Part shown: in pieces, positions 24,036 through 49,405 of the stretch
How the letters are laid out: each line of letters opens with the position of its first letter
Numbering within the stretch: position 1 is the stretch's first letter
Source of the DNA: Amoebophrya sp. A120
Taxonomy: Eukaryota > Protista > Dinoflagellata
Direction: 5' to 3'
Assembly: GCA_905178155.1 (NCBI GenBank)
Contig: CAJINV010000003.1
Location: forward strand, 1,793,557 to 1,857,556
DNA: 64,000 bases
Notes under the pieces: generated by a model
The model's database searches: none
Told to the model about the DNA's origin: nothing
Seen by the model: the letters and a program-made list of their open reading frames with translations, nothing else
Position numbers and translations under genes: made by a program

Positions 24036-27000
24036 CTAGAAAAACCTTCTGAGCAGCCTCGCTTTCATTTTGTTCATTTTCTCGTTGAATGTGACATTTG
24101 GCAACCGGTAGCCCCCTTTTTGGACTTGCGCGCGGTGATATAGGAGAGTGTTCCCGAACAGAATCGCGGAAAGGGAAATCAGAGCGCTTTCCGGTGACAG
24201 TTGCTCGGCAAAGTATCCCGTCAGCGAGGCTCCCAACAAGTATCCCAGGTCGTTTGACGTCCTCAACATCGACAGGGCCTGTCCACGCTGCACCTGTGAG
24301 TGAGTTTCTTGTTCAAAATCTCATGCGACGAAATTCAAATTGAAATCAACAAATTACTAGCATCCTTGCTTCCGATGCAGACACAAAACCGACACAACCC
24401 ACAGCAAAAAACAGCTTGTGACAACAGGAAGAAGTAAATACCGGGGACACCATGTCGCTGACGAGCGAGTTCGGCGCGGCTCCGTAGGCTGCACTCCCGA
24501 GGCCCCAGAGCGCGAAGATCGCGACCGCGCTGGAGTCCAAACCGTGATGCAAGAACGGCAGGAGGGCCATGGCGGCGCCCATGGCCAGCGTACCGCCGAC
24601 CAGCACCTTCTCCTTCCCGACCGTATCGCAAAGAAAGGCTATCGGTGGCCCGGATAACACCTGGATACCGGCCATGCCCGCAAACACGAGTCCCGTTTGC
24701 CCGACGTCCAGGCCAAACTGGGGCCCAATCAAAACGAGCGGCAACACCGTGGCGTGTCCACCGGTATGAGAGTGGTGCACGACCCTACTAGCTACTACCT
24801 GCTGCCCGTCATTTCATGGAATGTATCACGAACAGCGACAGACAGCAGCTGACTCACATGTAAATGCTCTGCAGCTCGTTCTTCTGGACAAATACACGTG
24901 TAAGTCTAAGTTCCGTACGCGGTGCATAATGTTGATGACCGGGGGCTCGGATCATCAACATCATGCAAGGAATTGCTAAATAGAGCTAGAGGGGAGATAG
25001 CAAAAGGCAAAATCTGGCTTAGATGAGCTTGTAATATATTTTTGCGAGAGAAATGCGGAGCAAAAAAATCATGTTGGTTCGTGCACTATCATAACCGGCG
25101 GAGCTGATCCAGAAGGCCCCGCTCAGGACCAGTAGGTCTTTCAACCGCGCGTTGTCTTGCCACAAAGTTCGCCAGTGGCTGACCGCCTCGCGCATCGCGT
25201 CTTTCATGGAACCGCCAAGCAACTTCGGTGCTGTCTCCACGATGAGAACTTGATTCGCTACCATGAGGACCATGAACGTGGACCCGACGGCCAGGAACGT
25301 GGGCTCCATACCGATGCGGGAAACCAGCAGTCCCCCAAGCGCCGGGCCCATCGCAATGCCGGCGTTGAAGGCGACCTAGAATCAAGAGCACCGAGAGATT
25401 TTGAATTTGTTCAGCCACAACCTGGCTGAAGAACCATAACTGATGAATCCCTCTATCCAAACTCATCTCGCAGACTACACTTTTGCTTTTCCGCCCATAA
25501 CTTTTAGTATCATCAGTACCCCAACTGGCGCGATGGTTCGTGTCATGTTCAACTTTGTCCCGAGGTCCATCATGCTCATAGATGCGGAGGAGGTCAACGC
25601 TGCGACGCAGCCTCCGACCAACATGCGCGAAAGACACATTTGCTCGAAGCTGGTTGCGAACGCCAAACTACCAAAGGCCACCCCCACGATCCCAGTCGGC
25701 ACGACGAAGAACGGCTTGCGCCCGTAGCGCTCCACCAAGAATGCAGCAGGGATGTTGGCGACTATCTTCGTCATCTGAAATAAATTCAAACTCATTCCGC
25801 ACGAATTTTGGGTGGAATAAGAGGCATTGATGATCATGTGACGTTTAGTTTTCGCCATGCAATGCTATTGCTAAATGACGCAGACGCTTACGTATTGATT
25901 GTGCTAGATCTAGAGCTAGACGCCAAATCCACTAAAAGCAAAAGATTCGGAAGCAATGGCGTCGTTGTAGCTGACCAGCAGTACTTCCCTGCCAAATAAT
26001 CTGTACCGCGAACGACGCGATGTAGATTCCGAACTGCGCTTTGGAGAGGGCGAGCTTTTCCGCGAGAAAGGGGATCACGGGCGTGAGGATGCCCAGCGTC
26101 GCGCCGGTCATGAAGCACGAGAACGCGATGGGATAGACGCGGTGGTCGACCTTTTCCGCCAAGCGCAAGATGGTTTTGGTCCACTGGTCCCGACTGATCC
26201 GGGGCTGCCCATTCTCGGTAGAATCGGTGGACACGCGGAAGACATCCAAGATCCGCTGCGTCAGCCGGTGGTCTTCCTCCTGCGTCTTCTTGGAAGTCTT
26301 CTGCAGCCGCTTCACCAGCTCCCGGATTTCGGGTTCGGTTAGGTACCCGTCGTCATCTGCATCCAGTTCGTCAAAGCGCTCCCGTATCTCCCGAGAGGAG
26401 AACTCCACCAGCCCGAGGGACTGGAACATGTTGGCCTGAATCGGTTTGCGGTTGAAACTCTGCAAGTAGCTGACCAGGGACGTTGGCGGCCGGGGGTACG
26501 GGCGTTTGTTTTTCGGCGGCGCGGCCGGGATGCGGGTGCTCTTTTGCCGCTTCGGAGCAACGCTTGTTGCAGGCACAGCTTTAGAAGTGCTGAGCGGGTT
26601 TTCGGCTGATGCCTTAGGCGGCCCGGCGGCGTTCTCCTTGTTTCTCGTCGACGGATTCGATGCCCCTGAAGTGTTCTCAGCAGAAAGCGCTGCAGCAGGT
26701 GCAGAGTCCTGCTTTGAAGTGGCGACACCCTGCTCGTTCGGTGCATTTTCACCGACATCAGCTTCAGCTGGCGCTGCTGGCTCTCCTCCAGCATCCTGCT
26801 TCCCTGGTGCAGTGTCTTTTTCGCGAGTAGTTGATGCGCTGAAAGTTCTTCTACCAGATGAAATGCAACTGCATCTTCTGGCATCCACAATTTTCTTGCC
26901 ACTGCAGTACGAGCGCGAGGGCACGTCTCGCGCTGCTGTAGTGCAGACCCTTGCTGAGGCGGCCGTGCGGTCGAAGATTGTGATCGCTCGGATGGCGGTC

Positions 27001-27164
27001 GAGTGGCAGCAAAAAAGTTCGCCAATCGGTCGTGTCGGTCCTCTGGTGACCGGCTGAGTCGTTCCTGGCCGTAGCGCGAAACGCCCAGTTCCAGATGGCG
27101 CGCTGCAAAGCAATTGTACTCTTGCTGTGGCATGATTTCTGTAGTACCAGCTACGAGCATACAT
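24036..27164 (-). CDS. MFS transporter (DHA1/Tet-like) with N-terminal transit-like extension and EF-hand; 5 exons, 756 aa
   Basis: Exons 27164-26007, 25774-25520, 25375-25096, 24761-24442, 24293-24036 sum to 2271 nt in frame. MFS motif A twice (LVERYGRK; LCDTVGK), RMLVG, GPALGG, RGQALS, GYLLG. EF-hand DADDDGYLTEPE. Three GT-AG introns plus one non-canonical intron. Confidence 0.85.
24765..25093 (-). mobile_element. TIR element acting as non-canonical intron (introner) in the MFS gene
   Basis: Plus-strand ends TATGAGAGTGGTGCACGACCC ... GGTTCGTGCACTATCATA (imperfect inverted repeat). ACCGG direct repeat at 24760-24764 and 25094-25098. Removing 334 nt gives FWISSAG|GHATVLPL. Confidence 0.8.
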
Positions 27165-27653
27165 TTGTGGAATTCAGACGCACATTGCATGTCTGCACCC
27201 GTCGATCCTGATCACCGAATCCTCTCTGAAGGACGACAAAAGCTATGGCTTTCTTGCTGTCTTGGTCCCACTCCTGGCAGCCTGGATCAGAACTACTTGA
27301 ACTTCAACTCTTTCTGCTTACATCGACGATCCATTTTTTCGACATGATCTATTCCCGAGATTACCGCTTGAGCTCCAGTGTCATGACCGAGAGAGAACTT
27401 GAAACGAGATCTTCAGAGGACTGCAGAAACGCTTCTACAACAGAAACCAGAAGCCCAGCTGCAACACCAACACCCCGTTGATTATCAAGGAAACATAAAC
27501 AACTCCTCTCCAGACGTAGTTGCTTGCCAGGTTCTGCCTAACTTTGAAATGACAGTACTGCTGCAACAGGATAGACACCTGTTCTGTTAAGAGCGGTTTG
27601 AGTCAACATGCTTTTTGAACGAAGTAAAAGTTGTCTGTGGTGCAACGGGGATT

Positions 27654-30418
27654 TCATTTCTCGTTGATCCGACCAGCGAAAAGCGAATGCGCAGACGAAG
27701 TGCCAGCATTCGCCGAAGCTTTCGCATGACTTGCTGCTCGCGCGCCAAAAATGGACGTGGAAACCGGCACTGGTTTAGCGTTTGGCGATGGCTTTGCAAA
27801 CAGGCTCGATTCCTCGCTGTTGATGCCCCGAGCGAGCTGTTGAATCGTCTGGTGAATGATTTTTTGTTGGTCCCGCTGCGACAGCTTCTGAAACTCCGAG
27901 GGCATTTGCGCCATCGGCTTCATGTTCATCGTTCGTGGCACAGCTGCCTGGACTTGTGTTTGGTTCAGGTGGTGCACCGCTGTTGATGCTGGTGGCCCTG
28001 CCTCGGCTCCTATATGCTTGGGCTGCGATGATTTTCGCTCATCCGCTTTCAGTTCTGAGCCTCGAGGGTCTACTGGTCTCGGACGCGGCGCTGTCCCTTT
28101 TTCGTCCGATACTAATACTCAGGGAAAATTTGTCACCGTCACCGTTTTGGCATATTCATTTTTTGAGCAAAAAAATTTGAATTTCTGCTGGCTTTGTATG
28201 CGTGTCCGTGTCTGCCACATGTTGCAACTGCGGCAAGCTAGCTACTGCGTTTCAAGCGCGCTGACCTAGCTCGCTGAAGGTAGTCCCGAAATATCCCAGA
28301 ACGGCGCTGCCGTTATACAGGCCAAAGCCGCGGCTCGTCCAGAAGGTCCTTGGCTGGGAGGCTGTCTACTGACACTAGAGCAACCAGATTTCCGTCCGCG
28401 GAGGATCGGAATACTGCGGCTGGTCTTGCTGGGTTGCCCCTCAGCATCTCGGGCACATCTTACTCCTTGACGAAAGACCTTCAGCAAAGGACCTCCACAA
28501 CCCGTGAAAAAAAGGCAAACTTTTAAGCAAATTAACCGACGACCCGGTGACAAATCTCGAAAATCGTGCATTTTGCACGGTATGGTGGACTATGGGAGCC
28601 CAAAAGCGGAACTGGTGACAAATGCCCGAAATTTTGCATTTTGCGCGGTATGGTGGACGATTGCGCACTGATCAAAAATTCTTGCAGCTGCAAGAATTTT
28701 TGGTCCGTGCGCAATCGTCCACCATACCCTGCAAAATGCAAGAATTTGCTGATTTGTCACCAGTAACAAATCTGGCTCGGAAACGTCCACCATACCGTGC
28801 AAAATGTAAAATTTCTGGGATTTGTCACCAGGTGGTCGTTAAATTTGCTTAAAATTTTGCTGCTTTTTTCTGGGTTCTGGAGGTCCTTTGCCGGAGGCTT
28901 TTAGTCAAGGAGTGACAAGGGCCCGACATTCCCAGGAGCAACCCAACATCACAAGCCGCACCATGCAGAAGCCCCCCCAGCAAGGATCGAGCCCCTATGC
29001 GCCAGCAGCCAGCCTCCTCGCAACGGGCCTTCTGGAGCCGCGTCTTCGGTCTGTACGACGGCAAAGCCATTCCGGGGCGCTTCTGGATTGTGTTCAACTA
29101 CACGGGCCACCATGCTCGAAGTGTAATGCCTCGCGGGCCACATTTGCAACAACTGATCAATACGGGCATGTGTGGGATATCAGGAAAAAATCAATTTTTT
29201 TGGGTCGGAAAATGAATATGCCAAAACGGTGACGGTGACAAATTTTCCCTGAATAACTAATACGTCAGTATCATGTGCTGGCGGCTTGAAGAGTGAGGCT
29301 AATCCTGCCATCGGCCGTGAAATCGGGTTCGTTGTCGTTGTACTTACCGCGGATGCGGCAGCCGCAGGTGCAAGTGCGGGTCCGGGCGATCCAGCGACAC
29401 GACGCATGGGTGCAGGACCGAACCCACCAGGTCGCGAGGGAAAATTGGCAGCATTCACTTGCTTCACCTGTCAGACAAACGATTCATTCGAAGTAGCTTC
29501 CGAACAATTCATTACTCCAAACAAACGAGAGTCCAAGTCCGCATTTCATCAGACACTCCAAAGCAAACAGTTGATAGATTAGATATGCATCAATTCGAAT
29601 TCCAACTTCACGCACCGGAACAAGTACTTACCTCAGCTGCTGCAGATGAGGATGCTACAGATGCAGCCAGAAGAGGCGTCTGTCCGGCAAGTGGTGGACT
29701 CGAGGCGAGACCATTCTTGATCCCCGGTTCTGGATTCGCGCGTCCGGTGCCATATTGGTCTCGAGTATGACCTGCAGAGAATCCGGTACGAGCAGCGACG
29801 ACCACATCAGGGCCAGGCGTGTTAAGCGGCTTCCTCTGCAGCGCCCCTGGTCCGTCTTGTTGCGCCTCCTCCGCTCCTCCTGTTTTCAAACGCTTCGCGG
29901 GCCGCAGTTGCTCCTGAATTGCTCCGTTGAGTGCATCTTTCACCACATTTTGAAGAGGGAAAAATGTACAGCGAAGCCGAAAAACGGGTGACGGTGCTAT
30001 GCAAACAAAACCATAGTCATAGAGAACTCTATTTTTTGAGTTTGCAAAGGTCACCTACAGTCTGTGGAACAGTTAAGTACAGTATCACCCTGTAGTTTTC
30101 CGCGCGATCGCACATTTGAACACTTTCATACTTCATATCCAGTATTATCGGTGGGAAGGTCCCGAGAAGCATCGTCTTCAGGTCCTCGAGCTGTAGAATG
30201 CTGTCCTGCAAATTTCGTTCCAGCTCTTTCTTGATTTCGATGTACGCTTTCTCGCGAAACTCCGTCTCGACCGCACTGCATGCTGACGTAGTGGTTGACG
30301 ACGGGAAGCTCGTGGCTGTTGGTAGAGACGAGGACGAGCTCGAGCCGCTGGAACCTCCGCCACTTGATATGCTGGTCAGGATCGCGTTCGGGTTGAACAA
30401 CCCGGCACAGCTGTTCAT
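27654..30418 (-). CDS. Hypothetical protein (~465 aa), 4 exons, interrupted by the fold-back element
   Basis: Exons 30418-30055, 29996-29632, 29467-29256, 28110-27654 sum to 1398 nt in frame. Intron 29468-29631 is GTAAGT..CAG. The intron-1 boundary is less certain. Confidence 0.65.
28116..29255. mobile_element. 1.14-kb fold-back (whole-length palindromic) TIR element / introner
   Basis: Perfect ~44-bp TIR TCAGGGAAAATTTGTCACCGTCACCGTTTTGGCATATTCATTTT, with its reverse complement ending at 29252. ACTAA direct repeat at 28111-28115 and 29256-29260 (extends to ACTAATAC). Arms stay complementary to the centre at 28687/28688. Confidence 0.92.
28546..28830. repeat. Core of the fold-back: two ~68-bp tandem units mirrored around a perfect palindrome
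   Basis: GGTGACAAAT...TGCATTTTGC(A/G)CGGTATGGTGGAC at 28546 and 28614, with inverted copies on the right arm. Centre AAAAATTCTTGCAGCTGCAAGAATTTTT. Confidence 0.9.
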
Positions 30419-31244
30419 CTTGTTGCACTTCTACTTTTGTATTTCAGAAATTAAGAATGACCACGTGAATGACGAAGCAGACGGAGACGACTAAAGGAGC
30501 TTCTACTTTGGTTGTGTAGCTCCCGGGCTGGCACAAAGGTGTAAACGCACCACTGTTTAGAAGGGCAAGAAGTTGCTTGGATTGAACTACACCAGTAGGT
30601 GGCCTAAGAGACTGACTTTCGTCCTCGCAATCCCTGAACGAAGTCCAACTGAAAGAAACTGACGATAAGGGATATCGAGGACAAATCGAAACTCGACGAA
30701 AAAAGGGTAAATCAAAACTCAAATTACTGGACAACTACGAAAATCAAGAATGTACAAGTAGTGGGCGAGAACAGCGGGTACACAAAAAATGCATAGTCAC
30801 CACATCAAGTCATGGCTTCCACTAGCACGACTGGCACTCGTCAGTCACCGTCGCAAGTAGCGGACTTGCTTTGTGTTCCTTTTACACTTATACTTAACCT
30901 TGTTCTTGTCTTTTTCCAAATTTTTGCTATTCAATAGCAATTTAGAGGAGGTCCGAGGTCGAGGTCACACTAACAATGAATTGAGCAATTCACACAAGGT
31001 TTGCATTGCGATTGGTAGTTGTTTCAAGTGCTACAACTAACACGAAGGTATGTTGTCGCTTTCCTTTTGTTCTTTTCTCGTTCCGTGGTTTTCGCCCAGC
31101 ATTACAAGTTCCTTTCGTTCCATAGTAAGTACCACAGTCCACTTTTGCTTGTTCGAGCCAGCGCAGCCGCTGTTCGTTTTTTTACAAAAAACTCACAAGG
31201 AAGATGAAATTTGGTTTTTCTAGGGAGCTCTATTCGGGTTTGCT

Positions 31245-32475
31245 TTACTTCTTCTTCATCACGACCATCTTGGGCTTGGTTTGCTTGGCGTTGGCATTCG
31301 TAGTTTTCGCCGTCTTGCTATTATTTTTCGTGTTTTTCATGTTCATCTTGTTGGCTCCATTCTTCTTCATCACGACCATCTTGGGCTTGGTTGTCGTGGC
31401 GTTCTTGGCATTCATTTTCGCCGGCATGCTATTGCTTGTTTTCGTCTTTTTCTTGTTCATCTTGCTGGCCGCCCCATTTTCATTTTTTCCCCCGCGTTTT
31501 GATTTTTCTCTACCTGTTGGTTGTATTGATGATCTTGGTCATGCACAACTTGTTAAGGTGTGATCGTACAATGAGCAACTCGCAACAGGAAAGCGAGTTC
31601 TTTGTGCTTGTATTCCTTTCTTGTCCATACGCCGTTCCTGTGTAGTCCGCATCGCACTCGCACAAGATTTTAAAAAAGCACTCATAATGGAAGGACTTAT
31701 CTATCACGACCGGCTACGCAGTGGCAATACGGCCGAGAACAAAGGAAAGCCGGCCTTTTTAAAAAAACACTGCACAAGTACTAGCCGCAATACCAATGCC
31801 ATCGCTTCCTCAGGCTCTTCGTCCTCGGCCTGCTCTGCGTCCTTCTTTTTTCCATGATGCGCTTTCCACTCGCGGAGGAGCAGGTCCGGGTCGATCTTCG
31901 CCGCCGCCTCGTCTTCGCCGCAAAACTCGCCAGACGTGACATATTTGTAGGAGTCGAGGTAATCGAGGCGGTCCTCAACCCACTTGGTTTCGTTCTCTAC
32001 TTCAGCTTTCTTCCGCCCCGCTACACTGCGCGCCAATTTTGCCAAGCCATCGCTAAGCACCTGAAAGTTTTTGCCTTTTGAATCCGAGCAGAAGAATTCG
32101 ATTTGATGTCATGGAGTTTCTCAATATCATGGCGAGATGAGCTATGATAAGCAAACGAAAGATCCGGGTCTAGAGCATGAAAAGCAAAAGCGACACATTA
32201 CCTCATAAATCTTCTCGACCGGAAACCCACACGAGCTCATTACTCCTCTGTCATGAATGTGCGAGCACACGTTCAGCACGATATCAATTTTGCCTTGGAG
32301 GCTTAGCACCTTCCCCGCTTGCTCCAGCGCCTTTTCGTGGAGGCGGTAGAGCGGATAGCGCATCCGGGAAAACAAACCACTTTTGACGCTCCACACTTCG
32401 TCTTCATAGAGATCGAGCCACGCCTCGATCTCGTTTTCCGAAGCGTCTTTTTTTAACGCTTTCATGTTGATTCCC
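31245..32475 (-). CDS. Multi-exon hypothetical protein, probably ending in a Lys/Met/Asn/Thr-rich basic tail
   Basis: Exons ~32475-32202 and 32060-~31794 are joined by GT-AG intron 32061-32201 (KIYE|VLSDG). Last segment ~31513-31245 (KMNKKKTK..KPKMVVMKKK). Phase of the last junction and the 5' exon are unresolved. Confidence 0.5.
31251..31470. repeat. 111-bp (37-aa) imperfect tandem duplication in the basic tail
   Basis: CTTCTTCATCACGACCATCTTGGGCTTGGTT at 31251 and 31362. Confidence 0.8.
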
Positions 32476-35443: not shown

Positions 35444-38400
35444 CTACATCACATTTCCGAGTATCGAGTTCGCGGTTCCTCCGATCGAGTTGCCAACGGA
35501 CCCCAGTCCCGTAATGCCTTGCTGGCCCAGGTTTCCGAAAGTACTGCCGACACTGCCCAAAGCCCCGGACACGTCTCCGTTCGTGAGCTGCGTACCCAGG
35601 CCGCCCGCAAAGTTCGCCGCATCAACACCACCCTGGCCAGCCAGCTGAGCCCCCTGCCCCGCCAGCGCAGCTGCGTCTTTTCCTAGTCCCACCGCGCTTT
35701 CCGGTGCGTTGCTCAAGGCGGTGCCGGCGGCGCCGACCGCATTCCCTGCTCCGTGCGCAGCATCTCCCGCGGCGGCGGCTCCCTTTGACAGAATGTTCTT
35801 GTCCTGCGCGTTCATCAAGGCGCTTTGGTGCCCGTCCTCCGTTTCTGGTGGGGGGTTGTGCGCCATGCGCAACTTACAGCGGGCATTCGCGTTTCGGCCG
35901 CAGTAGCACCCTATCAAATGCAGAAGTGTCTGGGTCTGGAAGGATACAAGGTTTGTCATGTTGGAAGGCTAAGGGCAGGGCGTCCCATTCGTTTATAAAC
36001 TTAAAACGGTAGCCACCTACCCAGCAAACTCTGAGTGGAATAAGCACGGGCAAAGCGATCTCTACCGAGAGACAGTCACAAGAGCTCCTGGGACGGCTGC
36101 GGGATGAGCTTTGTAGCCATCTGAGTAGGGATAACTTTGCCGGCAGATACAAGGTTTGTCATGCACATTTTGCAAGAATCCTGATGTCTGCGATGCATGC
36201 CCTAGCATCACAGATTATGTGAGGGCTTTCTGATTCCTATGCCGCATGAGAAATGCCCTCTCGCCGTGGCCAAAACCAGACCTCTTTTGCTGTTCATGCA
36301 ATACAGATTTTTGGATAATGCAGACGCAGCATCACAAGCTGCAATCTTCCAGACCCAGACATATTTGCATTTGATACACCCGAGCCGCGGCTCGGTCCGA
36401 AATTCGAACATGCACCCGTGCGGGTACTTGTCCTTTGGACAGTTCCGGTCGGACGTCGTGTTACTCAAATGCCCGTTGTTGTCGTCGTGAAAGGCACACT
36501 CGTGATCGGACATCACCTTGGTCGCGCAGTCGTCCCGTAACGCTTTCATGACGCTCTCCTCCTCTTTCGCAAGCTGGTCGCGGAAGTGCTTCAAGCCGTC
36601 CTTCTCCAGGCCGTCGAGAACTTTCAAATTATAGCCGATCGTCTGCCCGAGCGGCATGCCGACGCCCCCGACTACGTGCTCTTTGATCACGTCATTGGAG
36701 AAAAGATCTGCATCTACTTCTGGTTCTGCGAATGAGGTACTACAAGACGCAGGACTCTTGTTGTTCTTCATGTTCATTCGGTCTCCTGCTCCGCTGGACG
36801 CTGTATAAAAGCTGGTTGTGGAAGACGACGACCTCAATCGCGGTGTTGTTCTCGAGACCACGGGTGACGGGGCCGTACCGCCCCCTCCGCTGACCATGTC
36901 TGCGAAGAGCGCACCGATTCGTGAAGACAAAGCCTGGGTTACGCGACCAACCGTAAGCGCCGAGGCCGACAGCTGAAAGGCGGCGCTTAGTGCTGTCGCG
37001 GTGTTACCACCAGATGATCCCGCCATGTGTAGCATGTCGTATTGCGCGTTACCGTCGCTGTGCAAGAAGGATGTCGTACCACCCAGCAAATGCGACGCGT
37101 CGTGCTCGTCATGTGTATCATGCACGAAGTCAGAACCGGAGAAAAAAGACGATCTTGATACAGTGCCGCTCGTCGGCTTGAGCTCCTGGGCACACCCAGA
37201 CGCCGAACCTTTCACCCATGGCGAAGCGAGCTCATCAGAGGAAGAAAAGAATGTGGTGGAGGAGTACTGGTGCTTTTGGGATCGCCGGCCGCGGCCAGCA
37301 AAACTTTTTACTCTTTGCGAACCCGTATCTTCGTGAAGTGGTGAGATATTTGAACAAGATGATGTGGAAAAATAGTCCACGTACGACGAACGTGTCGGAA
37401 GAAGAACCGAACCCTCCTTCTTTGCGCCTCTATTCGCGACTGGTCCTCCTGTAGTTCCCGATGTGCTTAAGAAACTACTCGAACCTGCTGCTGTAGTGCG
37501 GAACGTGGTGGAGGGGACGCTGTCAGGTTCTTGCAAAGAACCTCCTTGCGTCGTCGAAGGTTTCAGATCGTCGCCAGCACCTCCGCCCCGCGCAGCCGCG
37601 TCTGCATGATCCACTCCTTCGCGAAGATTCTTCGTAGATCGTTGCGTCTCCACCATGGCAGTGATGTTGGTTGGAAGTCCCATGCTTGCCATGGGATTCA
37701 TGGAGGGCATGCCACCGCTCAGCGGGTTAGACATCATACCTCCTGGCATTCCGCCCAAAGGGTTTGACATTCCGCTAAGCGGGTTCATTGAGGACATGTA
37801 CCCCTGCGCAGCGGCGGTTGCCTTCTGTTGCGCGGCTTCGGGGGAAAGCGCTGCGGGGTCAAGACCTTGCTGGGCCGCCAAGGCTGCGGGATCTAGGTTC
37901 GTCGGCAGGTTTTGCGCCAAATTCGCCCCTGCAGCAGCTCCTCCAGCACCGGGAACTACCGGAGTGGTCGGTGGGGCCTCTGGCAGCTCCTCTTCCGGCT
38001 CCAGGGTTTCCAAGAGCGCTTCGGCGACGTTCTCCTGCTTCGGAACCGCGTGAAATTGCTGCAGTGCGTTTCCGTCTGCGAATCGCATCACCCGCTGGTA
38101 GTCTTCGTCCTTGATCAGACCCAGGGCAATCTCCGCTTTGATGGTGGCCTCGCCCGGGTAGAGGGAAAACACGCTCGTCGCACTCTTGTACGTGGCGGGG
38201 ATCTGCGTTTCGTCCACCTCGTGGTCGCCCCACAGCGGCACGCCGAACTTGTCGTAGGTGGGCGTCGGCACGGGCTTGGTCACCCGGTACACGTTGGTTC
38301 CGAGCTCCTGACGGGAGGCGTCGTCGATCAACAAACTCACGCCGCCGGCACAGTCGGCGTTGTCGATCCTTCCGCACACGCAGGCCTCCTGACCCACAGC

Positions 38401-41400
38401 AGTGCGGAAACTGAAGTACTTGGTCGTCCCACTTCCGCACTCCGGGTCGGCCCCGGCCAAGACAGCGCACCTGTAGTAAAAAGCACCAGATGATTTTTGA
38501 TTCGTACTTGACTTCACTTGCAAGTCATGATCTACAGAAAAAAAAACTCGCGCGGCGTCGTGCCACTTCATGTAAAAGGTTTTTGACTACTAGTGTCCGA
38601 AGCCAAAAAATGACCTCCACTGAGCCTGACTCTGTATGTGCTTACAGGAAAGAAAAAATGGTCAAAAAGAAACTCAGTACAGCTCTGGGGTTTTCGCGCC
38701 TGGTAGAAGCTTCACGTCTGTGGTTCCGTCGCCACATTTGAGGTCCTTGGCGACTTCCTCGAACAGTTGCTTGGTCCGGAACTTTTCGTCGATGGTGCCG
38801 CCGCCGTTGGGGCGGTCGCAGCGCCCATTGTTGATCGCGGTGACGCATGTGGCCGACGTCACAGGCTCCCCCTCGTGGTTCGCGATGTTGACGGCCCCAC
38901 TTTCCGGCGAGAGCTTGTGGCAGCAGTGGTTTCCATCCTTGGTCAGATGGGACGCACACGTCGCCTCGTCTTGGCTCATTTGGCACAAGTTTGCCGACAA
39001 GGGACCCTCCCCACCAGCGTAGCTGAGGTCGAAACCCCCGGGTGGCTGGGGGTTCCAGCCAAGTGCGGGCGGGTGGTCCACGTCTTCCGCGGTGTCCAGC
39101 GGGGCTTTGGAGGCGACCGTGTCGGTAAATTCCTCCGGGTCGCCGTACCACTGCAGCGTGTCGTCCACATGCGCGTTGGGATCGCGCCACGTGCGCTTCT
39201 CCAGCACCCACTGCGGCTTCGCGGGTGCGGGTGCTGCCGCGGCCTCCTCGCCTTCGCCCGCTGCCTCCGTCTCTGCTGGCGGCGGTGCCTGCTCCACCCG
39301 GACGCGGAACAATGCCTGTTTCTTCAAGTCCTCGCTCTCTTCCAAAGCCCAGTACTGCGGCGTTTCCCCAACCGCGGCAACTTTTTTGTAGCGGCCAAAC
39401 GGTGGCTGTGGCTCGGGGGTAGTTCCTCCAGCAGCTCCTGCAGTTTTTAACATTGCTTTCGAACCTGGTGCCGCATTCGCAGAAGCGGTGTCTCCAGTAC
39501 CGGTCGCATCTCCCGTGGCCGCTGTGGTTTGATCGGCCGCAGCTGTTCCCACTTTTGCTGCACTTGCTCCTGCATCTGGTGCATCTCCGTCGCCTTCTGC
39601 AAAGTCTGTTTTACTTTTGCGAGCTTTTCTCTCCAACTTTTCGTGTATCGGCCAGTTGCTAGAGGACCCGGACATGAGTGGCCGCTCGTCTCGGTGCGGG
39701 GATGACAGACTTGAAGAACTTTTACTTTCTGAAAGAGCTGAAGCGGTTATTGAGCGCGGGGCGACTTTTTCCACTGACACTTCAAGCGCCGAAGTCGTTC
39801 CCGCGGCGGCCGTTCCGGCTTTAGCTCCTCCTGCACTTCCGCCCGCTGCGTCAGTAGTACCAGTCGGAGTTGCTCCACCTGCACCACCTTTGCCGTCACC
39901 AGCTACCTGTCCGCCCCCATCTGCGCCGGCGCCCGAGCCTCCGTCAGCACCAGCACCAGCTGCTGCAGCCAGAAGCCCACGCGCCGCACCCCCGGCTTTG
40001 AGTCTGAGATCCAGGATTGGATCAGTGCCTCCTTCCTCCTCCCCGTTGTTGAGCTGACACTTGAGGTAGTACGCCGGTGGGCCTTTGATGCACGTGGTTT
40101 TGCAACGATGCATCAGTTTCGCCAGCTCCTCCTCGTCTTTCCACTGGGAGTTCCATCCCTGCGCCTCGTCGCGCACGTCTTGCTCCTTCTGGTCCGCGGT
40201 TTCGGGGTCGAGCAACTTCGCGATTTCGAACTTGAGTTGCTTCTGCGGATCCGTTTCCAGGGGCACGGAGGTGATCTCGCACACCGCGCGACCGGTCGTG
40301 TCCCGGGTACCGCCCGGTGCGAGCGCGTCCAACCGCGACCGTGCCTTGGCGACGGTTTGATGCACACTGTCCACCATGTCCTCGCGGATGACGCAGTACG
40401 ATTTGTCCACGTCGGGCTCTTTGCCGACCCAGAACGACTGATCCTTCACCCAGCACTGCTCGTGGCGGGCCGAGGAGGTGTCAGTCCCCAGGCCCCGAAG
40501 CTCCGCATCGTCCATGCTTCCCATTAGCTCGCAACTCATGCCGCCAGCACCTGGGTGGAAGTTAGTTGGACAGTATAGAAAGTCAACGAACTACTTACTA
40601 CAACGCGAAAGAGCGACCAGTACTAACTGCTACCGGTACCGACAACACAAATCTAGCTAGCGCTTGGAATGACTACAAGTGTGAAAACTACAACTTCACT
40701 CAGTATTTAGTATTTTTTTAAGAGTCCAGACTTGGACCTTTCTACCAGGTCCAGGTTTGGAAAGAATCTCCAAGTTTCTTTTTTATACCTTTCAACATTT
40801 TTGTTTGCATGCCCGCGAAGTCGACGGTGATGCCTTTTTCCGCGTTGTACCCAGATTCCGGTGGCAGGAAGTTCTGGGGCTCCGGGTACACGGTTGGGTT
40901 TTTTGCCAACACGCGCATTGTGGTGGATGCCTTGTCTGCCGGCCAAGTCGGTACCACCGTCGGGTGAGAGGCCTCGGCGTCCGTCCACTTCAGTTCTTCG
41001 AGCTGCCACGGCGACAACGGATCCCCCTGCTTGCCCTGCACCAGCCGATAGCCCTTAGTTGGCCCCGCCGCTGCGGTCGCTCCGGTGTCGTCGCCGCCTC
41101 CTCCGGTTGCAGCCGGCGGGCTTCGCGGCATCACTTTTTCCCACCAACCCGGCTTCTTCGGCAACGCCAGTGTCACAGATGGCGGCACCACGGGATCTTT
41201 CGGGGGTTCACCACTAGAATCCACGACCGCAGCTTCAGGCCCGTTCTTCTCGGTATCCGCACCGGCTGCAGCTGGTGTGCCTCCATCGTTCGAAGCTGCA
41301 GTCCCAGTAGCCGCGGCCGCTGTCCCAGACGAGCCTTCTGCTGTAGTTGTTGTCGTGGCTGCACCAGTATTTCCGTCGCCTTCAGCGAAGCTTGTGGTCA

Positions 41401-44400
41401 GTCCCTCTGCTCGCGCCTCCGTTGAGCTTGAAGAACTACTTTGCAAATTAGGTTGCAGGACGTCAGCGGGCGGGCTCTTCAATAATACGCGATCTTTTTC
41501 CTTGATGGCGTGCATTTGCTCATTGAGCTTTTTTGCAGATGCCAAGCCGACATTTCTCTCAGAGCCTATTTCGAGCTCGCTAGTAGCTGTACTGGGCGCC
41601 GCCCCCGTCGTTCCTGCACCAGCCACTGTACCTGCACCCTCGGCCGTTGACGCTGCAGCTGCTCCTTCGCCCCCACCTCCCTCTGCCGCCGCAGTACTAC
41701 CTGTAGCTGCAGCCGCTCCCGCAGTTCCTCCACTAGCAACGCCTTCTTCTGCTTTTGCTACCTCGGCCTTCGGGGTTGGGTGGAACACGTATGTCCCCGA
41801 AGCTTCCGGAAAGCTTGCGACGGCCACCTTGACGGCGTAGCTCGGCTGGAGTAAGTCAATGCCTTTGCACTCCGGATCGTACGCGCACTCGTGGATGCAT
41901 CGGGTCATCAATTTGTTTCGCGGTTCCAGCTGGTCCGGCCCGAGGACTTTTGGGCGCAGCATTTTCGGTTGGTTCGCCGTTTTGCCAGGAAGTGGCTTGC
42001 CGGGCATGCAGGTTCGGCCGTGGATCTCGAAGCCCTCGGTGCTCGGCGGCGGGACGTCCTGAACGTCGCGCGATTCTGCTTGCTCCTGGTCGACGATGCT
42101 TGCCAGGGAAAACAATGAGCTGAGTGGCGCATTTGTTCCGCTCGATCCGCCCTCATTAGCGCAGTGCCCAGGTTGGTTTGCCGGTATACAACAATGACTG
42201 ACGTCGGTTTCCGTGCATTCCGGGCCGGCACACAGCGCCTCGCAGTTCAGCTTTGGTGTCGTCTCCGGACACTGCATCTTGAACCCATCCCGCTCCGGTA
42301 GGTTCTCCCCGCGAAAGTAGAGCCTGCACGCCATGTTCTCATAAGGCTTCGGGGGTTCTTCGGGCACCTCTTTCTCCGGTAGTTCTTGAGGCGTTAATTC
42401 GTCTTCACCAATGCGCTGTGAGAGTTTCTGTGATATGCGCCGATAGTGGTTGCCTAGCTCCTCGATTTCCTTTGCAAAAGGAAACGCTTTAAGGTTGTTC
42501 ACTATCTTGTACTCCTTTAGCCTCTCCCCGACCAACGTTTTGCACTTGACGGACTGAATATCACCATCAGTGCTACATTCTTCGTCAAGCTTTTGCTGTA
42601 CGCTCCTCTCGTCTTTTGGTGCATCTCCAGTTCCTGCACCTGTAGAAGCATCATCTGCAGTTCCTGATCCTACATCAGCACCTGTCGTTCCTGCTCCTCC
42701 TGCACCTGCAGTTCCTGCTCCTGCAGCACCTGCAGTTCCTGCTCCTGCAGTGTCTGTTCCTGATCCTGCAGTGTCTGTTCCTGATCCTGCATCTGCTGCA
42801 AACGCAGTGAATATTTTTTTCCCCGTTCTGGTTGGAGAAGATGCCGACACCAGCGGCTCTTCCGCGAGCACGACGGGGTGGGAAGGACGCAAATAGTCCT
42901 TTCGCTTCGCGCATCCGCTTCCTAGAGTTCCTGATCTCGCGCCGGCCCCCCTCCTCGTTCTCTCTCCCATCGCGGCATACGGGAACGGGATCTCGAGAAG
43001 ACCAATGACGCCTTTCACTTTGGAAAGGTTAAAGGGGTCCATGCTTTTCAAGGAGTCCAAGTTCAGGCTCTTCGCCTTGGTGGAGTCCTCTCCCGCCGCA
43101 TTCGTCAAGCCAAGGTCCGCCTTGGTGGGATCAAAAGCGTTCGAACCGACGATATCGACGGGATTGGCCATGGTGCCTAGGTTTAAACCCACTGTGCCAA
43201 CGTTCCCAGTCATCTTGTCCGCCAGACTCTGGACCTGGTAGTTCTCAACGATTTTGATCTTATGTTTGAGGCGAGATTATCCCTTGCAAAAGTACCATAC
43301 CGCTATACGGTCGTTGCACCGTGCATAGCAAAGATTCTAATTATTTGAAATTTTGTTTCATCTTGAGTTGATCCACCCAAGAACATGCTGCTATTAAAGG
43401 CACATACTCACATCAAGATCGTTCGCAGTTGCGATGCAGTGCCGGATTTCGCAGCACATACAGTGCGATCATTACGTACTTACTTTTGCACGGGATAAAA
43501 AATCTAGTTCTGCGTCAGCCTCTTCGTAATCCTCCGGATTCACCGAACACTGCCAGCCTTGTTTTCCCGGCAGCGCTTCGTACTTTCGCTTTCGGTGTTC
43601 GTAGGCGTGCTGAGCCATCAGACCCGCGCCTGCTAGAGCGGCGATCCCGGCTCCGCCGAGCAGCATTTTTTGAGCCAGAGAAGAGTTCTTCAAGGCGTTG
43701 TACATCGCGCCCGCCTTGCCTGCTGCATACTCCGCCGCTCGACGAAGCCTGGACTTCTCCGTCTGTTTGAGTTGTGGGACAAGATGAAAAAGTGATGACT
43801 CTGTAATGCAGGGTGCTGTGGTGTCATCTTGAAATTGATGTCGATCAATACATATGCAATCCCATCGTAGTTCCGTAGTTTGTTCCGTATAGAAAACTAA
43901 ACATGAAGAGTCATCAAAAAACACAGCTTTACCGCTTTCTGCAGTGCTAATGCAGTATTTGCGGCCTCCGCTTCCTTTCGCTCGCGTTGCATGAGGTCTT
44001 TGCTCTGGAGCAGATTCCCTTCTTGCAGGTTTTTGCCGACGTCCTGAATGGCTGTCTTGATCTCGTTCATTTTGTCAATCATTTTCTCCAGCTTTTCAGC
44101 GTCGCCCGTTCGATGCCTCCCGGGTCCACACACTTTATTCACGGCACCTGAGCCTGCCGATGTGCTCCCGGCGCCTCCCAATTTGACGACTGACGCTGGT
44201 GTTCCAGCCCCTCCAGCCAGGGCGCCGGCCATAACACCACCAGCACCAGGAACCGGAGGAGGTAAGGGTGACGGTCCAGCACCGATCGACGAGCCAGTTG
44301 CTGCTGCTTCCGCAGGGCCGGCAGATGCAGGTGGAGCAGCAGCACCTGCAGCCGCTGGAGATGCTGGTGGAGCAGCAGCAGCACCTCCAGCCTCCTGCGG

Positions 44401-46283
44401 CACAGGCACAGAACCCTCGCCACCCTTCGGTTGTCCAATCGGCGGTGGAGCAGGCACTGCAACTGCAGGGGCATAGCCTGCGCCTCCTCCTCCGGGCTGC
44501 GCCATCGCCGGAGGAGCAGATGCTCCACCACGTGCTGGATAATTATATGATCCACCACCGGGGGCTGCAACCATCGCCGGAGGAGCAGATGCTCCACCAC
44601 GTGCTGGATAATTATATGATCCACCACCGGGGGCTGCAACGTTACCCCCGCCAGCTGCAGCCGCAGTACTACTAGATCCTCCAACTGCACCAGCTTTGGC
44701 CCCCGGCATGTCTTCGTAGCCCGCAGCCGTCTCTGCCGCGGACGGTGGCACGCAGAAATCCCAGTTGTGACGGGACACCGAAAACCACGAGCTGGTCCCG
44801 TCCCACGCACTTTTTTCCAGACACCGCGGGTTGGTCGGACAGGCGAAAAACTGCGTTTTCCCGTCGTGCTCGAGTGCCGTGCACAGGTCCGCGCCGGCCA
44901 GCGGCTCCCGGCTGTTCCGCTTCTCCATGCGGGCCATCAGCATCACGGCGTACCGGTCCCGCAGGGGTATCTTCTTGAAGGACGCCTCGCTGAACTCGCC
45001 CGTGTGGGGGTCCCTATCCACAGAAAAAAACCCATCCACATCCATTTTTTGCATGACAAACACAGGACGTAGGGTAGATTTTGATTTTATGTATGTTTTG
45101 CATGACAAATTGGATGTGGATGGGTGTTTTTTCCTGGATAGTCCCGCAGGTGGTCGTACTCCTTCAGCAGCGTGCTGTTCCAGCCGCAGCGGCAGCCAAA
45201 GTGCGCCGTGTGGTCCGGCTCCAGCCCGGAGGGTCGGCAGTAGTCCCACGCGCCCACCGTGGGACGGAGCTGGTGGTGGTTCTCGCCCCCGTAGGCGTAA
45301 AGCGCGTGGTCCCACCCGCCCGGGTCTTTCACGTCCGGCATCAGCACGCGGCAGTCCGGCGAGGATTTCACCTTGCACCACGTGAAGGGCGTCCCCTGGT
45401 GCACGCCGCAAGACAGCTGGCTGCTCGGGTCGCACTCGCAACCCGACGACGTCAGCGGTTGACCTTGACCAGCAGCGCCAGCCGCTGGCGCCGCGGCCGC
45501 CGCAGCTGCTACAACACCGGTGGCACTGCCCGGCTCTGGGTCGATTAACTTCATGAACTGGTCTTCGGTGCCCCCGCTGCTTGGCTCCACCTCCAGGTCG
45601 CGTCGGACCTTGGCCCGCAGGGAGGTGAGGTCCTTGTACAACAGGGAAATCTTGTCCGCCGCGAGATCGTTCTTTTCCGCCACGTTCTGGCCCAGTTTGC
45701 GAGCCGCGGCGGCCGAAGAGCTGCCGGACATGAGTGCCTGGGTGATGTCGTCACGCATGTCTTCCACCTCCCCCAGCGCCCCCACGGCGCCGCGCACCTG
45801 CTTCCCGACCTTCTTCAACAATCCGGCGAACCGCAACCCCGTCTCCTGCGTTTGCTTCTCGAGGGAGCTGATCTTCTGGTGCAGGGCGAGCTTCTGAACC
45901 CGTGTCATGATGGACTCGAACTGTTCCGCCATCGGATCTGCGAATGACGTGGCCTTCACCGGTGGCGCTGCTGAAAAGGAGCTCATCTTGGTTCCCGCTT
46001 GATTGTAGTGCCGCATGCGCATCCGTCCTGAGAGCTGCAGGGGTGAATGGGAACGAACACGCTGGTGCTCCAGGCCACGGCGTTGGCTGTCGCCATCGTC
46101 GCCATACCTCGCCGACGAGCTTGCAGCACTGAAGGACGAGCAACTGCTACTGGTCACACTGCTACTCCGATTTCCAAGCAGGTTTCCATGTTCGGTTCCA
46201 TCTCCGGCAGGAAAAAACGCAGTTGGCCGCGGTGGCGTACCGACGCCGTGTTCGTAAAAAAGGTGCTGATGCTGTCCCTGCAT
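35444..46283 (-). CDS. Giant (~3,131 aa) Cys-rich multidomain surface/secreted protein, 7 exons
   Basis: Exons 46283-45141, 45009-43933, 43762-43484, 43258-40789, 40550-38681, 38470-36377, 35906-35444 sum to 9396 nt in frame (4 GT-AG introns, 2 introners). Contains WDYC/WDFC Cys modules, PAN/apple-like segments (CIHECAYDPECKGI; ELCAVLAGADPEC), coiled coils and one hydrophobic segment (MLLGGAGIAALAGAGLMA). 5' end uncertain. Confidence 0.7.
35912..36376 (-). mobile_element. TIR element / introner in the giant gene
   Basis: TATCAAATGCAGAAGTGTCTGGGTCTGGAAG ... CTTCCAGACCCAGACATATTTGCATTTGATA. CACCC direct repeat at 35907-35911 and 36377-36381. Removing 470 nt gives PRLGC|YCGRN. Confidence 0.88.
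42660..42795 (-). repeat. Coding minisatellite (GTAGA/DTAGSGT repeats)
   Basis: Repeated CCTGCAGT(GTCTG)TTCCTG units. Confidence 0.7.
44502..44640 (-). repeat. Perfect 69-bp in-frame tandem duplication (VAAPGGGSYNYPARGGASAPPAM x2)
   Basis: Identical units start at 44502 and 44571. Confidence 0.9.
45015..45140 (-). mobile_element. Small TIR element / introner (126 bp) in the giant gene
   Basis: TATCCACAGAAAAAAACCCATCCACATCCA ... TGGATGTGGATGGGTGTTTTTTCCTGGATA. GTCCC direct repeat at 45010-45014 and 45141-45145. Removing 131 nt gives YDHLRD|PHTGEF. Confidence 0.88.
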
Positions 46284-47163: not shown

Positions 47164-49405
47164 TCAGGCTCCCGACAGTGCATCGTGACCGGTTATGTGC
47201 CGCTTGTGTTCCCCGCCCGAATGCTTGCTGCTGCTGCTGCTGTGCGCCGGCGCAACCGGAGGCGGTTTTTCCATGCACTCCGGGAGCTCGCTGGGCAGCT
47301 CCAAGCCTTGGAGCTTCATCTCGATGAAGTGCTGGGCGAGAGCGTACTCGTAAAGCGAGAGTTTGCCGTCCTTGTCCACGTCTGCCAACTTCCAAATTTT
47401 GTGCAGCATTCCATTGTTCAGCTTCGAGAGCTCCATACGCGTTTTCGCTTGCAGCCCACTGATCTTGCCTTCCTTGTCCGGACCAATGCTTACGAAGTCC
47501 CGCTCGTATTTCCCTGTTGTTGAAAAGCAGGTGCAGGTGAGATAAACAGGAGAAGATGAAGAACAAATGGAGATGAAATATGGTATCAATCTTCACTTAT
47601 GATGAGGCGAACCGAAAACAGTAGGAAAAATTCATTGTACGTGTGTCCGGCGGGCTCTGGAGATATTGACTGGTCAAGTAGGTCGCCTCGGTTACCCCTC
47701 CCTCTTTGTTAACCGCGAACGGGCTGGGATCCGGAGATTGGAACGGAAGCTTCGCATTCGGTTCTTGCAGGAGCGTCTCGCTCGGAATCAGCTTCAGCAA
47801 TTTTTGGACGTCTCGTTCCAGCATTTTCTGCAGTGCCTGTGTTTATTGTCGGAGGTTGTCCTCGCGAAGCGGCAGTAGATCGGGAAAACTACGTACAAAC
47901 ACTTGCAGAACCACAGTTACAGGAAAAAGCACGACGTGGGCGTGGTAAAATGAAAATCGAAATATGGTCTACCGCCCTAAAAGTGGATGATGATATCTTT
48001 TACGAAGTCATTAGTACCTGAATTTGTTTGGGATCGATAGTTTGCAGCTTTGAAAACTCGAAGCAGGTGAGGCGCCTCTGGAGGGCCTGCACGTTGGGGA
48101 AGTCCCCCAGCGGAAGCGAATGCTGCTTCGAGAGCGACTGGCAGATGCTGCCCAGGTTCCGAATGAGTTCCCTTTGCTTGGAGCTCCCGCCCCACAGCGT
48201 TGGCATTTCCTTGCGGAAATGGTCCATCAGGTAGGAGTGTACGCGCAGGAGCCGGGCGCGCTTGATCAAGTCGTTCAGCTGTCGTGTGGCGGAATTTCGG
48301 GGCAGCGCCGAAATCGCAGTATAAAGGTCGTTCTCTTCCATCTCAAAAAGTTTGCGCTGCTCATCGTTTTCTAACGGCTGGTCCCAAAAGCTGCCCAGAA
48401 ACACGCGAGCCACTTCGGGCGTGTGAATCACTTTTCCAAGACTCCACATCATCGCACCGTACACGCGCATCAGCTGCTGCGTTGATATCTGGAACAAGAT
48501 GCAGTATAATGATGTTATCTTTCTCAAGTACAAGTGTATGGTGCGTTTTGAATCTAACGCAAACATCACTACACTGGTACACTATAAATTTACGTTGCAT
48601 AAGTACATACATGCGTGAATGCTACAACAAGTTTGCGTATTACAGAAAATGCGTGTAAGTCACTCATTCGCAATTGTTTTCACTTCACAATAAACCGAAT
48701 GTTACAAACAAAATTATGTTGTCCTATTTATACCCGATCCGCTTTGTTGAGCACGATTTTGATTTTGCTATCGTTTCCCTTCAGCTGGTGGATGCATCGT
48801 TTAAACTCGTCCGAGATATCCAACTTGTGCGCGTCAAACAAGAGGATCACGAGATCGCTGCGGTCCGCGAACCATTTAATGACACCCTCGAAGTCGTACC
48901 CGCGCTGCAGGCGCTGCTTTTCGCCCGACAGGACGCCGGGGGTGTCGATGAAGGTGAGTCCCTCCAGGATCGGATTGTTCAGTTGGACGCACTCCAGTCG
49001 CTGCAAAAAGTTGTTGCCAAAGTTCGCGAGCTGCGTGAAGGGCATCGTGTTGTCCACGACCAGGGCATTCCCAGGAATGATGCGATCCGTTTTCCCGTGC
49101 ATTACCGTCACAAACTTGTCCGTCGTGGGCTCGGGGCCGATGCGAAGGCCCGGGTAGTCCCGCTCTAACAGGTGCCGGATGAAGCTGGACTTGCCCGTGC
49201 TGTACTGGCCCATCAGCAGCACCATGGGCTTGGCCGCAAAATCCGCGTCCGTCAGCCGGGGGGCGTAACACTGGTGAAACAGGGACGCGGATTCCAGGGG
49301 CAGCATGTTCTCCCGGTAACAGGTCTGAATCCCCTCGGTCACCGTGTTGTACAGCTCCTTGTAGGCGTCGCTGCCCTTCTTCTCCCCCAACATCCACTTC
49401 AACAT
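47164..49405 (-). CDS. EHD: EH-domain-containing dynamin-like ATPase (EHD/RME-1), 4 exons, 562 aa
   Basis: KPMVLLMGQYSTGKS, IGPEPTTD, DTPGVLSGEKQ, LFDAHKLDISDE, LNKAD, QQLMRVYGAMMWSLGKV; C-terminal EH domain (IWKLADVDKDGKLSLYEY). Exons 49405-48734, 48488-48018, 47836-47641, 47513-47164; all introns GT-AG. Confidence 0.95.

What the first reader, a model, noticed from the sequence alone, without database searches (positions are those of the whole stretch)
28111..29263. A 1.14-kb intron that is one continuous hairpin
Seen: complementarity is not limited to the ends. Left and right arms align along their whole length, for example ACTCCTTGACGAAAGACCTTCAGCAAAGGACCTCC versus the reverse complement of GGAGGTCCTTTGCCGGAGGCTTTTAGTCAAGGAGT. 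They meet at a loopless 28-bp perfect palindrome centred at 28687/8. Ends and centre are near-perfect, the mid-arms clearly diverged. Removing 1145 nt joins PPAHDTDVLV|SDEKGTAPRP; the four local GT-AG combinations I tested hit stops. Inference: the pre-mRNA forms a ~570-bp dsRNA stem that brings the splice ends together and could also feed small-RNA pathways. The uneven symmetry suggests selection or gene conversion at the termini and the centre.
Basis: partly seen in the sequence, partly recalled or inferred. Interest (0 to 1): 0.85.

Follow-up and report, generated by a model that had tools for sequence, protein, structure and literature searches.

The report
Giant hairpin introner spliced off-frame
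A 1.1-kb mirror-image insert, likely a transposon of a known intron-making class in the marine parasite Amoebophrya, is missing from the assembled transcripts, but the join removes two bases too many and so is predicted to cut a conserved tail off the host protein.

Summary
The inverted repeat is real: the arms of 28116-29255 match at 419 of 575 columns and are predicted to fold as one hairpin. The window matches Amoebophrya sp. A120. The insert has that strain's introner anatomy: TA..TA ends, a 44-bp perfect terminal repeat, a 5-bp target duplication, related copies elsewhere and non-GT-AG removal. Shorter whole-length palindromic A120 introners are already catalogued, and the scan noted similar introns in other genomes. 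I found no sign of selection on the mid-arm RNA duplex (G-U pairs 38 versus 39 by strand), and the arms diverged before this copy arrived. The new point is the join. All four RNA-type contig sets (one sample) skip 1147 nt, not 1145, and the public 293-aa protein agrees. That join is out of frame. It drops a motif that is 20/28 identical in the Amoebophrya AT5 ortholog. The two flanking repeats are predicted to pair and lengthen the stem to the observed 3' cut, which suggests the cut is placed by stem geometry (one locus, untested). Verdict: a new, unusually large member of a known kind, with a testable mis-splicing twist.

The parts
28116..29255 (-). Non-coding TIR element (1140 bp), inverted repeat over its whole length; TA..TA ends; longest stop-free frame 129 codons
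28116..28162 (.). Left terminal inverted repeat (44 bp perfect from 28119; one G-U-type mismatch at 28118)
29209..29255 (.). Right terminal inverted repeat; on the minus strand starts TAT-N7-AAA; a contig of another copy leaves the window sequence at 29255
   Evidence: (table 7)
28111..28115 (.). Direct repeat, copy 1 (ACTAA; inferred target-site duplication; match extends to 8 nt, 28111-28118)
29256..29260 (.). Direct repeat, copy 2 (8-nt match 29256-29263); predicted to pair with 28109-28116 and extend the stem
28535..28670 (.). Two 68-bp repeat units of the left arm, each holding the ATTTGTCACC motif that also lies in the terminal repeat
28705..28840 (.). Two 68-bp repeat units of the right arm (the four units match at 44-55 of 68-70 columns)
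28673..28702 (.). Perfect 30-bp central palindrome; crossed by DNA-type contigs
   Evidence: X1 record 2; X2 record 2
28109..29255 (-). Stretch missing from RNA-type contigs: 1147 nt, ends TA..AT (or 28110-29256, TT..TA); out of frame
30131..30605 (-). Host gene exon 1 (ATG at 30421; conserved N-terminal helix-like segment)
29632..29943 (-). Host gene exon 2
29256..29467 (-). Host gene exon 3, upstream of the element
27531..28108 (-). Host gene last exon; a run of T (poly-A) lies before 27531 in one X3 contig
28039..28041 (-). TGA reached by the 1147-nt join (293-aa product, same as public protein P0121)
27819..27902 (-). 28-codon motif conserved in Amoebophrya AT5 (20/28 identical), readable only in the frame of a clean 1145-nt removal, which stops at 27656-27654

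Best explanation
This is likely a non-autonomous DNA transposon of the Amoebophrya A120 introner class, palindromic over its whole 1140 bp, that sits in an exon and is missing from the assembled transcripts, with a join that removes 1147 nt and so is predicted to truncate the host protein before a conserved motif. Steps: (1) Inferred: an ancestral element was duplicated head to head, since the terminal-repeat motif recurs in four 68-bp units at the centre; the mid-arms then drifted apart. (2) Inferred from the 5-bp duplication, terminal repeats and related copies: a transposase acting in trans inserted this copy fairly recently. (3) Shown at contig level: the element is removed without GT-AG ends. 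(4) Predicted: the terminal stem brings the ends together, and the clean cut would lie at the 5' foot of the stem and 5 nt past its 3' foot. Here the two flanking repeats pair with each other, lengthen the stem by about 8 bp, bury the +5 position and likely push the 3' cut to the end of the longer helix (+7, or +6 with the 5' cut moved by one). (5) Untested: full-length protein most likely comes from a minor in-frame splice form that contigs drop; otherwise the truncation is tolerated. My odds: steps 1-3 about 0.85, step 4 about 0.35, minor in-frame form about 0.45.
For: Organism: the EHD protein at 48731-49402 is 99% identical over 100% of the query to an Amoebophrya sp. A120 protein; host exon 1 is 100% identical to A120 protein P0121. 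Anatomy: the minus-strand start fits the published A120 motif TAT-N7-AAA (PMC7789003 section 11). A 5-bp TSD with TA/TA termini is listed for A120 family 38, and 3 of the 50 A120 family rows I read are labelled palindromic (PMC12130899 supplement file 8). Copies: summed contig depth 145-424 over the element against 42-43 on the flanks in X1, variant contigs at 90-99% identity, and foreign flanks after 29255 and 29257. Removal: joint 28108 to 29256 in X3, X4, X5 and X6; absent from X1, X2 and X7. The neighbouring introner 35912-36376 loses exactly itself plus its 5-bp repeat and stays in frame (890 codons against 747 and 766 for one base either way). Lost frame is coding: 151 stop-free codons (52 of 20000 shuffles), codon score 0.14 bits per codon against 0.18-0.19 in two verified exons and near 0 in non-coding controls; motif 20/28 identical in P0122, E 9e-12. 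Stem extension: pair probabilities 0.79-0.88 for 29257-29262 with 28115-28110.
Against: The RNA-type runs are one sample of one study, their RNA status is a guess by the tool, and contigs show neither isoform shares nor rare forms. The flank pairing depends on the window folded: with shorter flanks a different 8-bp helix (upstream exon with 28108-28115) won, although it also buries the +5 position. The 187-nt non-canonical intron at 29944-30130 is removed in frame although its ends are not paired in the predicted fold, so a terminal stem is not always needed. Summed depth is not a copy number. No transposase was looked for (no genome held), and PMC7789003 reports none in A120. P0122 is a gene model fused to the next gene, so its linking of the two conserved segments is itself a prediction.
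Confidence: 0.8

Rival explanations
1. The long duplex is kept by selection on the RNA at this locus, for splicing or as a small-RNA precursor.
For: One predicted hairpin, z about -26; perfect runs of 44, 22 and 22 bp exist. One possible compensatory pair among variants (28525 with 28850), unphased.
Against: No strand bias in G-U pairs (38 versus 39); mid-arms 63% identical; of 44 variant calls taken from the shown rows of other copies, 22 break a pair, 14 restore one, 8 do neither. Arm divergence is older than copy divergence. The words Dicer and Argonaute do not occur in the supplement of PMC7789003; I did not establish whether A120 has them.
Confidence: 0.1
2. The out-of-frame mRNA still yields the conserved tail by recoding: a +1 ribosomal slip in the 23 codons after the join (for example at AAA-AGG), or re-initiation at the four methionines just before the motif.
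For: The out-of-frame join is the only form seen while the lost frame is intact and conserved. AGG is the rarest arginine codon in the window's long frames, 33 of 483.
Against: The AAA-AGG stretch is ordinary coding sequence of the old frame. A copy about 1% from its relatives leaves little time to evolve recoding, and the same short time explains why the lost frame has no stops. Methionine-rich patches occur in other proteins of this window.
Confidence: 0.1
3. The skip is a reverse-transcriptase jump across the foot of the stem, not splicing.
For: Strong hairpin plus direct repeats is the usual setting for such artefacts (recalled knowledge, no call).
Against: A jump should use the 8-nt repeat and give 1145; the observed join has 1 shared base. 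In X3 a contig inside the element has depth 2.9 against 27.8 for the joined contig. Over 60% of A120 introns are non-canonical.
Confidence: 0.07
4. The culture used for RNA carries a different DNA allele: the element excised with a 2-bp loss, or a 2-bp deletion next to it.
For: DNA-type and RNA-type runs carry different sample codes.
Against: The listed RNA-type pieces of this gene show 0 other letters against the window; DNA-type runs X1, X2 and X7 show no joined form.
Confidence: 0.06
5. Fold-back assembly artefact.
For: Loopless centre; no listed contig spans the whole element; the DNA runs may be the source of the assembly.
Against: Arms differ at 27% of columns; contigs cross the centre with 41 and 119 nt on the far side and enter the element from both unique flanks.
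Confidence: 0.02

Closest known systems
Introner elements among the non-canonical introns of Amoebophrya A120 (Farhat et al. 2021, PMC7789003; I read the abstract, sections 10, 11, 12, 16 and 32, passages, and parts of the supplement; figures not seen)
   Same: Same organism; starts TAT-N7-AAA; inverted repeats at the ends, direct repeat at the borders, repeated in the genome, no transposase, removed without GT-AG; hairpin proposed to join the exon ends.
   Different: That analysis covered introns of 40-1000 bp and repeats of 8-20 nt; this one is 1147 nt with a 44-bp perfect end and pairing throughout. The paper places inverted repeats 1-5 nt from the splice sites in A120; here the two offsets sum to 7. 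Its main-text uses of 'frameshift' that I saw concern mitochondrial genes.
Palindromic and TA/TA, 5-bp-TSD TIR introner families of A120 (Gozashti et al. 2025, PMC12130899; passages and supplement file 8 parts 15-17, 50 of 58 A120 rows)
   Same: Whole-length palindromes are listed (families 14, 15 and 56 labelled so; by my count 19 of 50 rows have a terminal-repeat call near the element length). Family 38 has a 5-bp TSD and TA/TA termini.
   Different: Those palindromic calls are 106-386 bp, apart from one 5627-bp call flagged as satellite. No row I read gives a whole-length repeat near 1140 bp. I could not match this element to a family by sequence. Its Fig. S8 legend speaks of whole amino acids added or removed.
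IS3EU/GingerRoot DNA transposons (PMC10045372, passages)
   Same: TA..TA termini.
   Different: Their TSD is usually 6 bp; here it is 5 bp, and no transposase is encoded.
Euglena nonconventional introns (PMC12501133, abstract only)
   Same: Paired ends with CAG and CTG near the borders; cut set by spacer length from the paired motif.
   Different: The signature needs 3 nt before CAG and 5-6 nt after CTG; here 4-5 and 10-11.
Internally symmetrical stwintrons of Hypoxylaceae (PMC8469720, abstract only)
   Same: Proliferating introns with 45-55-nt terminal inverted repeats and a predicted double-stranded intron RNA.
   Different: Those are canonical U2 introns without target duplications.

Membership tests
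Amoebophrya A120 introner element | Genome is Amoebophrya A120 | tested here: met
   99% and 100% identity to proteins named A120
Amoebophrya A120 introner element | Intron supported by RNA, with non-GT-AG ends | tested here: met
   Joint in 4 of 4 RNA-type contig sets covering the gene, one sample; ends TA..AT or TT..TA
Amoebophrya A120 introner element | Terminal inverted repeat starting TAT-N7-AAA | tested here: met
   5' end on the minus strand fits; the other end has TAC for TAT
Amoebophrya A120 introner element | Direct repeat of 3-5 nt at the borders | tested here: met
   5 nt outside the terminal repeats, extendable to 8
Amoebophrya A120 introner element | Repeated in the genome | tested here: met
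   Variant contigs, raised depth, foreign flanks; exact number not obtained
Amoebophrya A120 introner element | Inverted repeat within 1-5 nt of each splice site | tested here: not met
   Offsets 0 and 7, or 1 and 6. This is the anomaly reported; the published range describes the common case and came from introns up to 1 kb
Amoebophrya A120 introner element | Other copies also lie in genes as introns | not testable with these tools
   No genome held
MITE / non-autonomous TIR DNA transposon | TIRs, TSD, no coding capacity | tested here: met
MITE / non-autonomous TIR DNA transposon | Cognate autonomous partner with the same TIRs | not testable with these tools
   No genome held
IS3EU/GingerRoot superfamily | TA..TA termini | tested here: met
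IS3EU/GingerRoot superfamily | 6-bp TSD | tested here: not met
   5 bp here and at 35907-36376
Euglena nonconventional intron | N3-CDG ... CHG-N5-6 then purine | tested here: not met
   Spacers 4-5 and 10-11 nt
Hairpin-RNA / endo-siRNA precursor | Small RNAs from both arms | not testable with these tools
   No small-RNA run was listed
Borealin-like protein (host gene; resemblance recalled, from no call) | Match to Borealin profiles or solved chains | tested here: not met
   No such hit at E up to 10 in Pfam or PDB sequences; host protein left unnamed

The most novel reading that the evidence does not exclude
A120 non-canonical introns are cut by a ruler that measures from the foot of the terminal stem, and this locus is a natural mutant of that rule: self-pairing of the target duplication moves the cut 2 nt. 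The main mRNA is then out of frame, and the cell still makes the conserved C-terminal motif from it by recoding (+1 frameshift or re-initiation). The ruler part alone I put at about 0.35; the probability given is for ruler plus recoding.
Probability: 0.08. Interest if true: 0.85.

Novelty: new member of a known kind. Interest (0 to 1): 0.45.

Why it matters
How Amoebophrya removes more than 60% of its introns without GT-AG ends, and apparently without U1 snRNA, is an open question (PMC7789003). Loci where the cut is shifted are natural mutants: comparing flank pairing with cut position across the genome is a cheap, direct test of a stem-geometry rule. The case also shows a cost of introner insertion, a conserved segment put out of frame in the main assembled transcript, and it suggests that some short A120 gene models are mis-spliced or minor-isoform cases rather than fast protein evolution. 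The hairpin itself is large but of a catalogued kind.

Tried and rejected
No whole genome is held for this window, so copies could not be counted or their duplications read. No listed holder is on record as RNA. An 8-bp TSD (hAT-like) reading was dropped: the terminal repeats extend into the 8-mer, another copy ends at 29255, and the neighbour has a 5-bp duplication. A 2-bp TA duplication was not favoured for the same reasons. In-frame canonical alternatives: among GT or GC donors at 29240-29329 and AG acceptors at 28040-28134, none with GT and 3 with GC keep the conserved frame. Borealin identity of the host: no support. The search for longer homologs of the last exon found none at E up to 1 and missed P0122, so it is insensitive. 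P0123 and P0124 (121 and 78 aa) cover only the N-terminal segment; P0123 has no match to the last exon. The protein atlas gave no answer. AAA-AGG occurs 0 times in the training frames, against under 1 expected: uninformative. Literature: six searches showed no paper on out-of-frame splicing of Amoebophrya introners or on its small-RNA machinery; subscription papers such as Roy et al. 2023 (seen only in a reference list) are not covered, figures were not visible, and 8 of 58 A120 rows and supplement file 14 of PMC12130899 were not read. No earlier notes exist for this genome.

Full report
Observation. The inverted repeat is in the sequence. Arms 28116-28687 and 28688-29255 match at 419 of 575 columns, with 59/65 at the ends, 170/270 in the middle, 119/150 further in and 71/87 at the centre. 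The perfect central palindrome is 30 bp, 28673-28702. The minus strand is predicted to fold with one hairpin loop at -654.2 kcal/mol, against -369.7 +/- 10.8 for 20 shuffles. An 8-nt direct repeat lies at 28111-18 and 29256-63, 1145 nt apart; five of its bases lie outside the terminal repeats.

Organism. A window protein is 99% identical to an Amoebophrya sp. A120 protein, and the host gene's first exon is identical to A120 protein P0121. In this strain over 60% of introns lack GT-AG ends, and a large share are introners with inverted and direct repeats whose motif starts TAT, seven variable bases, AAA (PMC7789003). The element's 5' end on the transcribed strand fits that motif. The published analysis stopped at 1000 bp.

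It is a repeat and not an artefact. In DNA-type run X1, summed contig depth is 145-424 over the element and 42-43 on the flanks; variant contigs are 90-99% alike, and two contigs leave the window sequence after 29255 and 29257. The tool warns that such depth is not a copy number. Contigs cross the centre (X1 28186-28728; X2 28133-28806 with 8 other letters and 3 gaps) and enter the element from both unique flanks. No contig spans it whole, and these runs may be the assembly's own source. Four 68-bp units around the centre carry a motif of the terminal repeat, which suggests a head-to-head duplication of a shorter element (inference).

Selection on the RNA duplex. Of 146 arm mismatches, 38 give G-U pairs on the transcribed strand, 39 on the other, and 69 are transversions. 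Of 44 variant calls taken from the shown rows for other copies (both tables were cut), 22 break a pair, 14 restore one and 8 do neither. The arms differ by about 27% and the copies by about 1-10%, so the pattern came with the element. Conserved ends and centre are what transposase-binding sites would give (inference). Whole-length palindromic introners are already listed for A120: 3 of the 50 family rows I read are labelled palindromic, and family 38 has a 5-bp duplication with TA/TA termini (PMC12130899 supplement). Those palindromes are mostly 106-386 bp.

It is removed from transcripts, but not cleanly. Contigs of runs X3, X4, X5 and X6 all join 28108 to 29256 and skip 1147 nt, with 210 letters on the shorter side and one shared base; X1, X2 and X7 show no such joint. 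The four runs are one sample and are RNA by the tool's guess; they also skip a GT-AG intron, and one contig ends in a run of T, so they behave as RNA. Raw-read run X9 laid nothing. The join gives 293 codons, ending at TGA 28041-28039; a 1145-nt removal would give 422. The public protein P0121 is the 293-aa form, probably from the same kind of data and so not independent. By contrast the neighbouring introner 35912-36376 loses itself plus its 5-bp repeat and stays in frame, and the 187-nt non-canonical intron of the same gene is also in frame.

The lost frame is coding. It has 151 codons without a stop (52 of 20000 shuffles) and scores 0.14 bits per codon, against 0.18-0.19 for two verified exons and about 0 for controls. 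Its motif at 27819-27902 is 20/28 identical to Amoebophrya AT5 protein P0122, which also carries the N-terminal segment (50/85 identical) and is fused in that model to the EF-hand/MFS gene that follows in this window. No in-frame GT-AG alternative exists nearby. The host protein could not be named.

Likely mechanism of the shift. With about 55-65 nt of flank, the two repeat copies are predicted to pair with each other at probabilities of 0.79-0.88, extending the stem to 28110/28109, which is where the 3' cut is seen; the 5' cut falls at the single bulged U. With shorter flanks a different helix covers the same 3' bases. Either way the position 5 nt past the terminal repeat is buried. This fits a cut placed by stem geometry, but it rests on one locus and on folding alone, and the 187-nt intron is cut in frame with no predicted end pairing. 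A reverse-transcriptase jump would be expected to use the 8-nt repeat and give 1145. What happens to the protein is open: a minor in-frame form hidden by contigs (about 0.45), a tolerated truncation (about 0.3), recoding (about 0.1), or an artefact or allele difference (about 0.13).

Earlier scan notes from other genomes describe similar non-canonical introners, and one proposes a 3' cut set by position after a hairpin. I did not test them.

Verdict. A new and unusually large member of the known A120 introners. The hairpin needs no special RNA function. The out-of-frame join over a conserved motif is the part worth following, because it gives a direct test of how these introns are cut. Interest 0.45.

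Noticed in passing
window 35907-36376: Textbook A120 introner: TAT..ATA ends with about 45 nt of inverted repeat, 5-bp duplication GGGTG, removed exactly (470 nt) in X5 and X6, frame kept; summed DNA contig depth is thousands of times the flanks, so a very large family.
   Followed up: partly
window 29944-30130: 187-nt non-canonical intron (TA..TG or GT..GT) in the same host gene, removed in frame in X3 and X4; its ends are decayed, and it holds a 15-nt match to the big element's terminal repeat (29982-29996).
   Followed up: partly
window 43278-43497 and 40599-40849: Two more candidate introners with TAT..ATA and TAC..GTA inverted ends and no clear duplication; splicing not seen in the rows shown.
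   Followed up: no
window 25932-27303 and protein P0122: The EF-hand plus MFS gene downstream is a separate contig in the RNA-type runs but is fused to the host gene in the AT5 gene model; synteny is kept.
   Followed up: partly
window 27902-27929: Four methionines within nine codons lie just before the conserved motif of the last exon, possible re-initiation sites.
   Followed up: no
window 161-59107: Nearly all long open frames lie on the minus strand, several intron-free over 800-1947 codons, in line with the co-oriented gene blocks reported for Amoebophrya.
   Followed up: no
window 44494-44640 and 31249-31469: Short tandem duplications inside coding regions (79 nt at 97%; about 110 nt at 82%).
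   Followed up: no
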